Source: an uncultured Heliomicrobium sp. (GTDB lineage: Bacteria > Acidobacteriota > Blastocatellia > RBC074). Taken from it: a stretch of 64,000 bases of DNA. The stretch lies in contig CAZMXG010000011.1 of the NCBI GenBank assembly GCA_964570175.1, forward strand, positions 4,417 to 68,416, read 5' to 3'. The position numbers and the translations under genes are program-made. Below are positions 54,891 through 57,364 of the stretch, piece by piece; within the stretch, counting starts at the first letter, position 1; each line of letters opens with the position of its first letter. The notes beneath the pieces were generated by a model that saw nothing but the letters and a program-made list of their open reading frames with translations, was not told the DNA's origin and ran no database searches.

Positions 54891-55757
54891 TTAATCAACA
54901 AGCATTAGCGACCCGCACTCCAGCCATTCAGAAAGAATCTCTTGCGGCGATTTGGCATTGGGTTTGGCTTTGTGTCGAGCCAACAAGCCGCGAATTTCCA
55001 CTGGCCGTTTCGCATCGTAAAGAACCAGGTAAGCGGCTTTGTCCAGGTCTGTCATAGAAATGCCGGTCGCACTGGGGCTGAACAGAAAATATACTTTTTG
55101 CTGAGCGTCAACTTCGGGCAGGCCGTTCAGCTTTGGCGCATCGTCGCACAAAGCCATCGCTGGCATCAGGCTGAGTTCAAACAAGTAGCGTTCGACGTGC
55201 TGAATGGTTTTGATCACGTTGCCTTGAAAGCTGGCGACATCGTGACCGGGCGCAAGCCGCAAGCGGGCACGGTCATTGATTGTGGCAGGCAATTCTTTGG
55301 CTTCGTACTTCCCTTCTCGCGCCAACGACCGGCGGCAACCAGCCATCACGCTTTCCAAGCGCACAACATCCGGAATTTGCGCAGCTTGCCACGCGCCGCG
55401 CTGGCAACCATCCAGCAGAAAATCCGCAAAACCTCGCCCCAACGAACCGCGATCTTGAATGGCGGAATGAAAGGACCGGCTGGAAAAGAACGCTTCCAGC
55501 GAAGCCAGCGAGCGCGTTTCAGCCAGAATGATCGTCGTTGAAATTTTGAACTCTTCGGCCAAGGTTCTGAGCGTTCGCCGTTTGCGAAGCGCATCGTGCC
55601 GCCAGGCGCGGCGATCAACGCCAATCAATTGATCACGCTCAACTGGTGTCAAATCAAATCCATCCAGCGCTTGATCCGCGTTTGTATACACAGACCCCGC
55701 AAACGCCTCGTCAAAAAGCATGCGAACAACCAGTTTTTGAAGCGTGTGGTGGCTCAT
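54891..55757 (-). CDS. DUF2063-family protein (MbnC-like partner of the MNIO/DUF692 enzyme)
   Basis: 288 aa, immediately downstream of the DUF692 gene with a 15-nt gap. Assigned from the conserved DUF692-DUF2063 pairing and N-terminal composition; moderate certainty. Confidence 0.5.
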   Translation of the reverse strand: MSHHTLQKLVVRMLFDEAFAGSVYTNADQALDGFDLTPVERDQLIGVDRRAWRHDALRKRRTLRTLAEEFKISTTIILAETRSLASLEAFFSSRSFHSAIQDRGSLGRGFADFLLDGCQRGAWQAAQIPDVVRLESVMAGCRRSLAREGKYEAKELPATINDRARLRLAPGHDVASFQGNVIKTIQHVERYLFELSLMPAMALCDDAPKLNGLPEVDAQQKVYFLFSPSATGISMTDLDKAAYLVLYDAKRPVEIRGLLARHKAKPNAKSPQEILSEWLECGSLMLVD

Positions 55758-55772
55758 CTGCCCGGTTTTCCT

Positions 55773-56654
55773 TTAAGCGGCTTCTGCTTTGGCGACAACG
55801 GTGGGAAAGAGCGAATTCAGCCGTTCAAACACTTCCAGACATTCTTCCGGCTGGTTGTGTTCGCATTCAAACACGATGGCTTTGAGATTCTTTGCGCGCG
55901 GAACGACGTATTCCAGGATTTCCCAAGTTGCGGGCAAAGGCTCAGGCGAATGATTGTCTTCGATGAAAGCGTAACCTTCGATGTCTGTGAGCGCTCCTCC
56001 GGCGACGTGCATTTCCACTACGCGATCCAGCGGAAAGCTGTCCAAGCCTGCCAGCGGCGGCAAATTGCGCGTTTGCTGAAAAATGGCCAGATGAGCCGCA
56101 TCCAGCACCATTCCGCAATCGGCTTTGTCGGTCACCTGCGCGAAGTAATCCAGCAAATGTAAATCGCCCAGATAAATTACCGCCGGAGGATTTTCAGGTA
56201 GAACGCTGAAGCCTGTTTCGGCTTCGATATGTGCGATGCTTTCCGCCGTTTCCAGCGCTGATTCGCGGCAAAGAATGGGCGGCATCAACATTCCGTGACC
56301 ACGTTCGCGCGAAGCGAAATGCCAGCGGCCAGCATCACCACATAACCAGGCAGCGTTGATTTCTTTTGCCAGGGCTTTGGTTTGCGCGATCCAGACAGGA
56401 TCAAGATCGAGTTTCTCTTCCAGATTGATGTCCAGAAAATGATAGGTCGTAGGCAAACCATCGGCCGCCCAACGGCGCACACCCGCATCCAAGCCGCGCT
56501 CCAGATCACCGCCATATTCATAAAAGTGAATCAGATCGGGATAATGTTCTTTGACCCAATTCACATCCATGCCTTTGACAGCGATGTTAAATTCTCCGGA
56601 AAGGCCAACACCAAGTCGTGGCAAGCTTTTCACTCGTTCTGCAAAATTAGTCAT
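55773..56654 (-). CDS. DUF692 family multinuclear non-heme iron oxidative enzyme (MNIO; MbnB/TglH-like), TIM-barrel
   Basis: DUF692 hallmarks (YHFLDINL; GDLHLLDYF; MVLDAAHLAIF; VEMHVAGG; FIEDNHSPEP; IVFECEHNQ). Start placed at MTNFAER (56654); the longer track ORF would overlap higA. Confidence 0.65.
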   Translation of the reverse strand: MTNFAERVKSLPRLGVGLSGEFNIAVKGMDVNWVKEHYPDLIHFYEYGGDLERGLDAGVRRWAADGLPTTYHFLDINLEEKLDLDPVWIAQTKALAKEINAAWLCGDAGRWHFASRERGHGMLMPPILCRESALETAESIAHIEAETGFSVLPENPPAVIYLGDLHLLDYFAQVTDKADCGMVLDAAHLAIFQQTRNLPPLAGLDSFPLDRVVEMHVAGGALTDIEGYAFIEDNHSPEPLPATWEILEYVVPRAKNLKAIVFECEHNQPEECLEVFERLNSLFPTVVAKAEAA

Positions 56655-56661
56655 CTTGAAA

Positions 56662-57081
56662 TCAGATAAACAAATCCGCGGTAACTTTAAAAAACTCAGC
56701 CAGGGCTTTTGCCTGAGTTTTGCTAATTTCGCGTTTCCCGCCCAAAACGTCAGAAACTCGGCTTCGACCGCCGAATAATGGAGCAAGATCAATCTGCTTC
56801 AACCCGCGATCTTCCATTAGCGTTTTCAGCACAGCTCGCGGTGAAGCTTCTTCAATCGGATATGCTTTCTCCTCGAAATCTTCAATCAAGCGAACCAGCA
56901 TTCTGAGTAGCCAGCGTTCTTCGGCAGTCAGATTTTTTTCGCCTTTTGTCATCAATCCATTGACGATTTCCAGCGCGCGTTCATTTTCAGCTTCCGTTTC
57001 AATCGGCTTCGGCAAAGCAGTCGCCAGCAAATCGGCATACCGCTGAGCAGAAGTTTTTCTGGTTTTAGCAACTGCAATCAT
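56662..57081 (-). CDS. higA: HigA-family antitoxin (HTH/XRE)
   Basis: Starts MIAVAK like E. coli HigA. C-terminal HTH (LKQIDLAPLFGGRSRVSDVLGGKREISKTQAKALAEFF). Overlaps higB 3' end by 17 nt. Confidence 0.75.
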   Translation of the reverse strand: MIAVAKTRKTSAQRYADLLATALPKPIETEAENERALEIVNGLMTKGEKNLTAEERWLLRMLVRLIEDFEEKAYPIEEASPRAVLKTLMEDRGLKQIDLAPLFGGRSRVSDVLGGKREISKTQAKALAEFFKVTADLFI

Positions 57082-57364
57082 CTTTCCATTTCTCCCTGTC
57101 ATAATCGGGATGAGTCAGCACAAAACGAACTAGAATGGTCTGGTCTTCATAATAGATTTTGGCAATCAGCCGATACTTGTTTCCGCCAATGTTAAAGATC
57201 GTGCATTCCTTGTATTGATCCGCGTGCGGAAAGCTTTGCCTGGTTTCTGCCACATTCTTCCACCGCGCTTTTTTAGTCATCCGATACCAAACCTCCAGCG
57301 GCTTTTTGGCATCCGGGTACCCGCTCCAAAACTTGACCAATCTTTTTCGGCTGATGATGTGCAT
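57065..57364 (-). CDS. higB: HigB-family toxin (RelE/ParE superfamily mRNA interferase)
   Basis: MHIISRKRL...YP...FNIGGNKYRL...THPDYD matches the HigB pattern (MHLITQKAL..FNVGGN..THKEYD). Toxin-first order is typical of higBA. Confidence 0.75.
   Translation of the reverse strand: MHIISRKRLVKFWSGYPDAKKPLEVWYRMTKKARWKNVAETRQSFPHADQYKECTIFNIGGNKYRLIAKIYYEDQTILVRFVLTHPDYDREKWKDDCSC

What the first reader, a model, noticed from the sequence alone, without database searches (positions are those of the whole stretch)
54891..57364. DUF692 (MNIO) plus DUF2063 RiPP-maturase-like pair with no visible precursor peptide; a higBA toxin-antitoxin module sits directly upstream
DUF692 enzymes (MbnB, TglH, ChrH…) together with a DUF2063/MbnC-like partner oxidatively remodel Cys or other residues of a small precursor peptide. 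That peptide is normally encoded immediately upstream of the DUF692 gene.
- Here the DUF692 gene ends 8 nt from the stop of a higA antitoxin, and higB is beyond it.
- The DUF692 gene starts at 56654 and higA ends at 56662, so there is no room for a precursor ORF.
- Either the substrate is encoded elsewhere (an orphan maturase pair), or the precursor was displaced by insertion of higBA, or the pair acts on a non-peptide or protein substrate. Any of these is worth follow-up.
Basis: partly seen in the sequence, partly recalled or inferred. Interest (0 to 1): 0.6.

Follow-up and report, generated by a model that had tools for sequence, protein, structure and literature searches.

The report
Orphan MNIO maturase pair, no precursor
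This is a two-gene iron-oxidase module of the kind that normally modifies a small peptide encoded next door, but here and in more than 100 related loci no such peptide gene is linked, so its substrate lies elsewhere and is unknown; the toxin-antitoxin genes in front of it are a later insertion.

Summary
The MNIO call holds on three tests: Pfam PF05114 at 66 bits, a TIM-barrel model, and TglH, 3BWW and MbnB as best structural matches.

The "DUF2063" call fails every HMM test, in 0 of 55 family members. The protein's best structural matches are nevertheless the known MNIO partners TglI and NGO1945. It is therefore a signature-less "type 2" partner. It also carries an N-terminal domain resembling NHLP-type RiPP leader peptides.

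Across 135 related loci (Blastocatellia plus high-GC soil bacteria), only MNIO followed by partner is conserved, usually with overlapping stop and start codons. No neighbouring gene family is general. No small ORF is conserved upstream, between or downstream.

In the closest relatives that lack higBA, the upstream protease gene ends in a terminator. A TTGAAA/TACAAT promoter then abuts the MNIO ATG. higBA therefore displaced a promoter, not a precursor gene.

Best reading: a vertically inherited TglHI-like peptide or protein oxidase with an unlinked substrate, probably read through from the higBA promoter in this genome. The substrate and the chemistry remain unknown. Interest is moderate.

The parts
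55773..56654 (-). MNIO (DUF692) enzyme, 293 aa, of a divergent subfamily. Signature motifs are TYHFLD, CGDAGRWH, RERGH, LPENPP and LLDxAHL.
   Evidence: PF05114 scores 66.4 bits. All NCBIfam equivalogs fall far below their cut-offs. The AF2 TIM-barrel model has pLDDT 89. The best folds are TglH, 3BWW and MbnB. Candidate metal ligands are invariant: H72, D107, H112, E154, D185, H188, H216, D233, H235 and E263.
54891..55757 (-). MNIO partner protein, 288 aa. It has an NHLP-like N-terminal helical domain (res ~5-51), a helical middle region and a C-terminal RRE-like alpha/beta domain (res ~165-287).
   Evidence: No Pfam hit. The Foldseek top 3 are TglI (two entries) and NGO1945/3dee. NF038399 matches at res 6-51 with E 1.6e-7, and in 29 of 55 relatives. 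ApyI HMM similarity lies in the C-terminal part of a relative. The gene is always immediately downstream of the MNIO gene.
56662..57081 (-). higA antitoxin. The likely start is the ATG at 57081 (MIAVAK..., 139 aa, as in orthologues). The longest ORF starts at 57102.
   Evidence: HTH_3 matches at E 1.4e-6. Orthologues in L010 and L014 start at MIAVAK. The gene overlaps the higB stop by 17 nt.
57065..57364 (-). higB toxin, 99 aa.
   Evidence: PF09907 HigB_toxin matches at E 1.8e-28.
57386..57414 (-). higBA promoter and operator: TTGACA (57409-57414), a 17-nt spacer, then CAACAT. The palindrome TGTTGCC-N5-GGCAACA (57387-57405) overlaps it.
   Evidence: Read from the sequence. The inverted repeat is I4. 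The element is conserved upstream of higB in L010, L014 and L015. Function is inferred.
57443..57484 (-). Terminator hairpin of the upstream tricorn-like protease gene (AAAAGCGCAAGC...GCTTGCGCTTTT). It marks the upstream boundary of the higBA insertion.
   Evidence: Inverted repeat I1, 12 nt and 100% complementary. The homologous hairpin is present in relatives without higBA.

Best explanation
The two genes encode a cytoplasmic TglHI-like holoenzyme.
- The first product is a multinuclear non-haem iron oxidase (MNIO).
- The second is a partner whose C-terminal RRE-like domain presents a peptide or protein substrate to it.

The pair is a self-contained, vertically inherited two-gene unit of Blastocatellia, with relatives in other soil bacteria. 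Its substrate is encoded somewhere else in the genome.

Normally the pair has its own promoter butted against the MNIO start codon, which implies a leaderless or near-leaderless mRNA. In this genome a higBA cassette with its own operator-bearing promoter was inserted between the upstream terminator and the MNIO ATG. The pair is therefore now most likely transcribed by read-through from the HigA-controlled promoter.

Shown:
- Fold and family of both proteins.
- Invariant adjacency of the two genes.
- Absence of any linked precursor.
- The insertion history of higBA.

Inferred:
- Heterodimer formation.
- O2-dependent oxidation of a peptide residue.
- A substrate encoded in trans.
- Co-transcription with higBA.
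For: MNIO identity:
- Pfam hit above threshold, model and fold ranking.
- The conserved ligand set aligns to MbnB motifs.

Partner identity:
- Best folds are TglI and NGO1945.
- ApyI-like C-terminal region in a relative.
- The stop of the MNIO gene overlaps the partner start in 33 of 47 loci.

Stand-alone unit:
- 135 non-redundant loci were collected.
- The partner follows the MNIO gene in 54 of 64 loci by tblastn, and in 7 more by HMM.
- No neighbour family is general: tricorn 12, P450 8, S9 peptidase 6, higBA 5, BNR 3, TonB 2, TetR 2.
- No small ORF is conserved upstream, between or downstream.

Own promoter:
- TACAAT lies exactly 7 nt before the ATG in 26 of 67 Blastocatellia-type loci.
- 13 of these have TTGAAA 16 nt upstream.

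higBA as an insert:
- It is present in only 5 loci. It is absent from the closest relative L005 (95% MNIO identity), where terminator, promoter and ATG follow each other directly.

Functional constraint:
- The MNIO is 52% identical between distant clades, whereas the partner is about 30%.
Against: - No substrate was found, so 'peptide substrate in trans' is an inference from the partner's RRE-like fold.
- The partner model is only moderately confident (pLDDT 73.8). Its fold matches have modest scores (E 2e-3, TM about 0.4).
- The His of the canonical MNIO 'DH' motif is replaced by Ala108, with His112 four residues later in an invariant loop of low model confidence. The metal site may therefore differ from known MNIOs.
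- Two or three loci (L085, L130, possibly L112) have the MNIO gene without a detectable partner.
- Read-through from higBA is inferred only from the 7-nt spacing and the loss of the TACAAT promoter.
Confidence: 0.6

Rival explanations
1. A precursor gene once lay upstream of the MNIO gene and was displaced or destroyed when higBA was inserted.
For: Precursor genes usually precede MNIO genes (PMC12452194). higBA sits exactly in that position.
Against: Relatives without higBA have 114-171 bp between the protease stop and the MNIO ATG. A terminator and a promoter fill that gap, and it holds no ORF. No upstream small ORF is conserved in any of about 45 Blastocatellia loci or 55 distant loci.
Confidence: 0.02
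2. The partner carries a built-in leader. Its N-terminal NHLP-like domain plays in cis the role that a leader peptide plays in ordinary RiPP systems. The enzyme therefore acts on leaderless targets (a housekeeping protein or free peptide), or the 288-aa protein is itself the modified product.
For: The NHLP-clan HMM NF038399 hits res ~5-50 in 29 of 55 relatives, and in 10 of 10 distant ones tested (best E 8.7e-11). PF14407 hits 8 of 55. PDB 6lk7 matches at E 0.19. No leader-bearing precursor is linked anywhere. Two of the most conserved segments of the partner (res 82-105 and 195-208, including the invariant LMPAMALCDDAP in Blastocatellia) have low pLDDT.
Against: Cys141 and Cys204 are not conserved outside Blastocatellia, and the C-terminus is variable, so no universal modification site is evident. 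The full-length fold matches partner proteins. Conserved segments of low confidence may simply be MNIO-binding interfaces. Similarity to NHLP may reflect a shared helical motif only.
Confidence: 0.13
3. The pair acts on a non-peptide small molecule and is not a RiPP or protein maturase.
For: No precursor, peptidase or exporter is linked. In a high-GC sub-clade the pair forms an operon with a cytochrome P450, next to ordinary metabolic genes. The MNIO fold belongs to the xylose-isomerase-like TIM barrels, most of which act on small molecules.
Against: Every characterised PF05114 member modifies peptides (PMC12452194, PMC11117315). The partner has an RRE-like peptide-binding domain related to TglI and ApyI. 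P450s also cooperate with an MNIO on a peptide in the apy pathway (PMC11117315).
Confidence: 0.12
4. A very small or unconventional precursor ORF lies next to the pair but was missed.
For: RiPP precursors are often unannotated. My searches used ORFs of at least 10-15 codons starting with ATG, GTG or TTG.
Against: In 26 of 67 loci the -10 hexamer lies 7 nt from the MNIO ATG. In 33 of 47 loci the two genes overlap. Downstream genes differ between loci. This leaves no conserved space. Clustering of small ORFs recovered only shadows of flanking genes.
Confidence: 0.05
5. The pair is a decaying remnant of a former RiPP cluster and has no function.
For: There are no accessory genes.
Against: Reading frames are intact in more than 100 loci. 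The MNIO is 60-95% identical across a bacterial class, with an invariant ligand set. Translational coupling and the promoter are conserved.
Confidence: 0.02

Closest known systems
TglHI (Pseudomonas syringae; peptidyl-(S)-2-mercaptoglycine synthase of 3-thiaglutamate/pearlin biosynthesis; PDB 8HCI/8HI7)
   Same: The best structural match for both proteins comes from the same holoenzyme: MNIO to TglH at E 2.8e-13 and partner to TglI at E 2.3e-3. The partner lacks the DUF2063 Pfam signature, as TglI does (the 'PME-type 2' class of PMC12452194). Both are cytoplasmic, with no signal peptides.
   Different: Sequence identity is only 12-15%. There is no TglA scaffold peptide, no PEARL ligase (TglB) and no protease in the neighbourhood. 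The partner has an NHLP-like N-terminal domain, which I found no report of for TglI. The MNIO has the subfamily-specific CGDAGRWH/RERGH loop.
ApyHI (Burkholderia thailandensis; aminopyruvatide pathway)
   Same: The ApyH HMM is among the top NCBIfam hits for the MNIO (55.6 bits). The ApyI HMM hits the C-terminal domain of two partner relatives. A sub-clade of relatives has a P450 in the operon, as the apy cluster does (PMC11117315).
   Different: Scores are far below the equivalog cut-offs (400 and 200 bits). There is no ApyA precursor, B12-rSAM enzyme or methyltransferase. The partner's C-terminal residue is not conserved.
BufBC / HvfBC (bufferin and oxazolin systems) and MbnBC (methanobactin)
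   Same: They share the MNIO family and the gene order MNIO followed by partner. Ligand motifs align with MbnB. 3BWW (an HvfB homologue) is the best sequence match in the PDB.
   Different: Those partners are bona fide DUF2063 (or MbnC) proteins. Their precursors are encoded immediately upstream and mostly carry Sec signal peptides (PMC12452194). None of this applies here. The BufB and HvfB HMM scores are 56 and 43 bits, against cut-offs of 310 and 360.
Maturases with many unlinked precursors, such as ProcM of the prochlorosins (from my own knowledge, not tested here)
   Same: One maturase unit serves substrates encoded at distant loci. Those substrates carry Nif11/NHLP-type leaders, the clan that the partner's N-domain resembles.
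   Different: The enzyme class is different (LanM). No dispersed precursors have been identified for this pair.
HigBA type II toxin-antitoxin modules
   Same: HigB matches PF09907 and the antitoxin has an HTH_3 domain. The toxin gene comes first and the two genes overlap. A palindromic operator sits in the promoter.
   Different: Nothing unusual in the module itself. The only peculiarity is that it sits 7 nt upstream of, and probably drives, an unrelated two-gene unit.

Membership tests
MNIO / DUF692 (PF05114) | Match to the family HMM above the curated threshold | tested here: met
   66.4 bits against a cut-off of 25, E 3.2e-18. All 120 listed homologues carry PF05114.
MNIO / DUF692 (PF05114) | Xylose-isomerase-like TIM-barrel fold closest to solved MNIOs | tested here: met
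   AF2 pLDDT 89 and pTM 0.89. Foldseek ranks 1-9 are TglH, 3BWW and MbnB, at E 2.8e-13 to 1.4e-8.
MNIO / DUF692 (PF05114) | Conserved His/Asp/Glu iron ligands | tested here: inconclusive
   H72, D107, E154, D185, H216, D233, H235 and E263 are invariant and align with MbnB and 3BWW motifs. The His of the 'DH' motif is Ala108. His112 follows after a 4-residue insertion in a loop of low model confidence.
MNIO / DUF692 (PF05114) | Iron content and O2-dependent peptide oxidation | not testable with these tools
   Needs biochemistry.
Named MNIO equivalogs (BufB, HvfB, ApyH) | Score above the NCBIfam equivalog cut-off | tested here: not met
   56.1 against 310, 43.2 against 360 and 55.6 against 400 bits.
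DUF2063 (PF09836) / PME-type 1 partner | Match to the DUF2063 HMM | tested here: not met
   No hit at E<=10 for the window protein or for L002. 0 of 55 diverse relatives hit at E<=0.01.
PME-type 2 partner (signature-less DUF2063/TglI-like; PMC12452194) | Encoded directly after the MNIO gene | tested here: met
   Adjacent in every Blastocatellia locus with room. Adjacent in 61 of 64 metagenome loci. Stop and start codons overlap in 33 of 47 loci.
PME-type 2 partner (signature-less DUF2063/TglI-like; PMC12452194) | Structural similarity to NGO1945 (3dee) or TglI (8hi7): helical N-domain plus RRE-type C-domain | tested here: met
   The Foldseek top 3 are 8hci_A, 8hi7_A and 3dee, each at probability 1.00, but with E 2e-3 to 2e-2 and TM 0.32-0.44. 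The model has pLDDT 73.8. The ApyI HMM hits the C-terminal part of relatives.
PME-type 2 partner (signature-less DUF2063/TglI-like; PMC12452194) | Physical complex with the MNIO and binding of a precursor | not testable with these tools
RiPP biosynthetic gene cluster | Precursor peptide gene linked to the maturase | tested here: not met
   No conserved small ORF within about 500 bp upstream, between the genes, or within 450 bp downstream. None in distant or P450-linked loci either. No leader-like ORF elsewhere in the window or the loci.
RiPP biosynthetic gene cluster | Linked leader peptidase or exporter | tested here: not met
   No neighbour family is general. The tricorn-like and S9 peptidases recur only in sub-clades. 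The ABC exporter at 50989-54161 pairs with the divergent TetR gene and is not conserved next to the pair.
HigBA type II toxin-antitoxin | HigB (RelE-fold) toxin HMM, HTH antitoxin, and toxin-first overlapping genes | tested here: met
   PF09907 at E 1.8e-28 and HTH_3 at E 1.4e-6. The genes overlap by 17 nt. A palindrome lies in the promoter.

The most novel reading that the evidence does not exclude
This is a distinct MNIO subfamily (more than 500 clusters at 50% identity for the partner). Its partner has acquired a built-in NHLP-type leader-like domain. That frees the enzyme from leader-bearing precursors, so it installs an oxidative modification on an unlinked, conserved cellular protein or peptide. 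That would make it a housekeeping post-translational modification rather than a natural-product pathway.
Probability: 0.13. Interest if true: 0.75.

Novelty: new variant of a known kind. Interest (0 to 1): 0.45.

Why it matters
Every characterised MNIO has been understood through the peptide gene that sits next to it. This subfamily is conserved across a whole acidobacterial class and beyond. It is under strong constraint and consistently lacks any linked precursor, peptidase or exporter.

That pattern points either to RiPP precursors recognised in trans or to protein-level modification by an MNIO. Both would widen what this enzyme family is thought to do. The NHLP-like domain on the partner is a concrete handle for experiments.

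For annotation there are three practical lessons:
- The partner should not be called DUF2063.
- The missing precursor is not an assembly or insertion artefact.
- higBA is an unrelated insert.

Tried and rejected
Negative searches:
- DUF2063 HMM on the partner and on 55 relatives: no hit.
- Small-ORF clustering upstream, between and downstream of the pair: only shadows of flanking genes. This covered 45 Blastocatellia loci, 55 distant loci and 8 P450-linked loci.
- An HMM of the partner's leader-like N-domain against all six-frame ORFs of the window and loci: no stand-alone leader-like peptide.

Ideas dropped:
- The 41-aa CxxxxC ORF at 56952-57077 is a shadow of higA.
- The partner as its own Cys substrate. 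Cys141 and Cys204 are invariant in Blastocatellia but not in wider relatives.
- The higB promoter as a hybrid of the native MNIO promoter. The same promoter and operator accompany higBA in L015, in a different context.
- A functional link to the peptidases. Tricorn-like or S9 peptidases lie near the pair in about 18 of 135 loci, in at least four separate contexts. This is suggestive but not general, and these are secreted proteins, so it was noted rather than adopted.

Literature: full-text searches found no description of this subfamily.

Tool failures:
- The diverse partner alignments A4 and A5 were too divergent for locus scanning.
- The window's partner is not on record for contig look-up.
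Full report
**The observation**

On the minus strand the window carries four genes in a row:
- higB at 57065-57364.
- higA at 56662-57081. The longest ORF runs from 57102, but orthologues start at MIAVAK.
- A 293-aa gene at 55773-56654.
- A 288-aa gene at 54891-55757.

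A TetR gene (54289-54873, plus strand) converges on the last of these.

Pfam confirms three of the calls:
- HigB: PF09907, E 1.8e-28.
- The antitoxin: an HTH_3 domain.
- The 293-aa protein: an MNIO (PF05114, 66.4 bits against a threshold of 25).

The MNIO ATG lies 7 nt after the higA stop codon. The same 293-aa product is the NCBI gene call, and residue 1 aligns in essentially all orthologues. The coordinates and the "no room" statement are therefore correct.

**The DUF2063 label**

The 288-aa protein hits nothing in Pfam, even at E<=10. None of 55 diverse relatives hits PF09836.

Structure tells a different story.
- An AlphaFold model (pLDDT 73.8) shows a helical N-terminal half and an alpha/beta C-terminal domain.
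- Its three best PDB matches are TglI (8hci_A, 8hi7_A) and NGO1945 (3dee), the archetypal DUF2063 structure. All three have probability 1.00, but with modest E-values and TM-scores.
- Chain identities were checked: 8hci_D is the DUF692 chain.
- Two distant relatives also hit the ApyI HMM, in the C-terminal domain where it was located (P0383).

This matches what Antoine et al. (PMC12452194) call "PME-type 2" partners. These are DUF2063-like by structure, lack the Pfam signature, and are typical of systems whose precursors lack signal peptides.

The MNIO model is confident (pLDDT 89). Its best folds are TglH, 3BWW and MbnB, ahead of all other TIM barrels. Both proteins therefore match the same solved holoenzyme, TglHI, best.

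**A distinct subfamily**

- All named NCBIfam equivalogs (BufB, ApyH, HvfB) score 43-56 bits against cut-offs of 310-400.
- PDB sequence matches are weak.
- The usual ligand positions are invariant: H72, D107, E154, D185, H188, H216, D233, H235 and E263.
- The His of the "DH" motif is Ala108. His112 follows in an invariant CGDAGRWHF..RERGH loop, which the model leaves disordered.

**Comparative genomics**

Homology searches found hundreds of close homologues, essentially all from Blastocatellia and other Acidobacteriota. An exhaustive profile search found 555 partner clusters at 50% identity.

Locus scans of species-representative genomes (50 loci) and of metagenomes (80 loci), plus contig look-ups, gave 135 non-redundant loci.

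The only invariant feature is the MNIO gene followed by the partner gene.
- They are adjacent in every Blastocatellia locus with room.
- In the metagenome loci the partner follows in 54 of 64 by tblastn and in 7 more by HMM.
- The stop and start codons overlap in 33 of 47 loci.

Flanking genes differ from clade to clade. Counts across the 135 loci are: tricorn-like protease 12, P450 8, S9 peptidase 6, higBA 5, BNR 3, TonB receptor 2, TetR 2.

Small-ORF clustering upstream, between and downstream recovered only shadow frames of neighbouring genes. An HMM of the partner's N-domain found no stand-alone leader-like ORF anywhere in the held sequence.

**History of this locus**

In the closest relatives without higBA (L005, L007, L011, L012, L013, L026), the tricorn-like protease gene is followed by three elements:
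- A GC-rich terminator hairpin.
- TTGAAA, a 16-nt spacer and TACAAT.
- The MNIO ATG, 7 nt further on.

Overall, 26 of 67 Blastocatellia-type loci have TACAAT at exactly -13 to -8. This implies a leaderless or near-leaderless mRNA and leaves no space for an upstream cistron.

In the window the same terminator is present (57443-57484). It is followed by a higBA cassette that brings its own TTGACA promoter, overlapped by the palindrome TGTTGCC-N5-GGCAACA (57387-57405). The same promoter and operator accompany higBA in L010, L014 and L015. The TACAAT promoter is gone.

Another relative, L025, has a different toxin-antitoxin pair (HicB-like plus PIN) at the same spot.

higBA therefore replaced a promoter, not a precursor gene. 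The pair is probably now read through from a HigA-controlled promoter; that step is inferred. The 41-aa two-Cys ORF at 56952-57077 is less conserved than the overlapping HigA frame (59-66% against 84-87%), so it is a shadow ORF.

**An unexpected feature of the partner**

Residues ~5-51 match an NHLP-clan RiPP-leader model, NF038399.
- E 1.6e-7 for the window protein.
- 29 of 55 relatives match, best E 8.7e-11.
- 10 of 10 distant relatives tested match.
- PF14407 "Frankia_peptide" hits 8 of 55, and an 85-residue "nitrile hydratase alpha chain" PDB entry matches at E 0.19.

I found no mention of NHLP in the MNIO landscape paper.

The two Cys residues that are invariant in Blastocatellia (C141, and C204 in LMPAMALCDDAP) are not conserved in wider relatives. 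The C-terminus is variable. A self-modifying partner is therefore unlikely, though not excluded.

**Mechanism and verdict**

The best-supported reading is a TglHI-like cytoplasmic holoenzyme. The partner's RRE-like domain recruits a peptide or protein encoded elsewhere, and the iron cluster oxidises a residue of it.

Rival readings, in rough order of weight:
- A built-in leader that permits leaderless or protein substrates.
- A small-molecule substrate, hinted at by P450-MNIO-partner operons in a 70-74% GC sub-clade.
- A missed micro-ORF.
- Displacement of a precursor by higBA, or gene decay. Both are contradicted.

The family is a new variant of a known kind. It is worth experimental follow-up at family level, but the locus itself is not anomalous.

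Noticed in passing
window 54891-55757 (partner residues ~5-51); relatives P0241-P0390: The N-terminal domain of this partner family is homologous to NHLP-clan RiPP leader domains. NF038399 hits 29 of 55 relatives and PF14407 hits 8 of 55. I found no report of this for MNIO partners.
   Followed up: partly
window 57365-57505; loci L010, L014, L015, L083, L025: The spot between the tricorn-like protease terminator and the MNIO ATG is a toxin-antitoxin landing site. It holds higBA in five loci and a HicB-like plus PIN pair in L025. In the higBA loci the native TACAAT promoter is missing.
   Followed up: yes
upstream of the MNIO ATG in 26 of 67 Blastocatellia-type loci (e.g. L005, L011-L013, L016, L018): A perfect TACAAT lies exactly 7 nt before the start codon, and 13 of these loci have TTGAAA 16 nt upstream. 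This implies a leaderless mRNA for the pair.
   Followed up: partly
L108, L109, L123, L125, L127, L137 (also L106, L132): A 70-74% GC sub-clade has a cytochrome P450 gene directly upstream, in the same operon as the MNIO and partner genes. It recalls the apy cluster, but again has no visible precursor.
   Followed up: partly
window 57506-60853 and 60928-63984; L039, L044, L049, L055, L057, L064: Two tandem tricorn-like proteases (PD40 + PDZ + S41) lie upstream here. PD40/S9 peptidases lie within a few genes of the pair in several unrelated clades. This may be chance in peptidase-rich genomes.
   Followed up: partly
window ~21000-48400 (minus strand): A complete-looking contractile injection system (eCIS or phage-tail-like) cluster is present. 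It includes a sheath (38091-40082), a gp19-like tube (37608-38048), a CIS tube-LysM protein (35474-36151), Baseplate_J (29411-32851), PAAR (33279-33560) and an AAA ATPase with a WHD domain (46130-48394).
   Followed up: partly
window 1860-2021 (minus strand): An intergenic 53-aa ORF has 8 Cys (MSDQTDKCANLPCHCPVSAGKLFCSEQCEQLDNDPDTGDCRCGHVECQQEHFL) and no Pfam hit. It looks metallothionein-like. It lies 54 kb from the pair, and no link was shown.
   Followed up: partly
window 55773-56654, MNIO residues 105-132: The invariant subfamily loop CGDAGRWHF..RERGHG.L.PP.L is the only internal region of low model confidence. It replaces the canonical 'DH' ligand motif, with Ala108 in place of the His.
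   Followed up: partly
P0366 (701 aa, representative library): A partner N-domain is joined to a TonB-dependent receptor in one predicted protein. This is probably a gene-call fusion of neighbouring genes. L001 and L049 also have a TonB-dependent receptor gene close to the pair (divergently upstream in L001).
   Followed up: no
L085 (MNIO at 8001-8852), L130: These are rare loci where the MNIO gene is followed by a terminator and a convergent gene, with no detectable partner.
   Followed up: partly
window 50989-54873: The TetR gene (54289-54873, plus strand) is divergently paired with a MacB-type ABC exporter (ATPase 53424-54161, FtsX/MacB_PCD permease 50989-53427). The TetR gene recurs next to the pair only in the closest relative (L006); the exporter genes joined none of the listed recurrent neighbour clusters.
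   Followed up: yes
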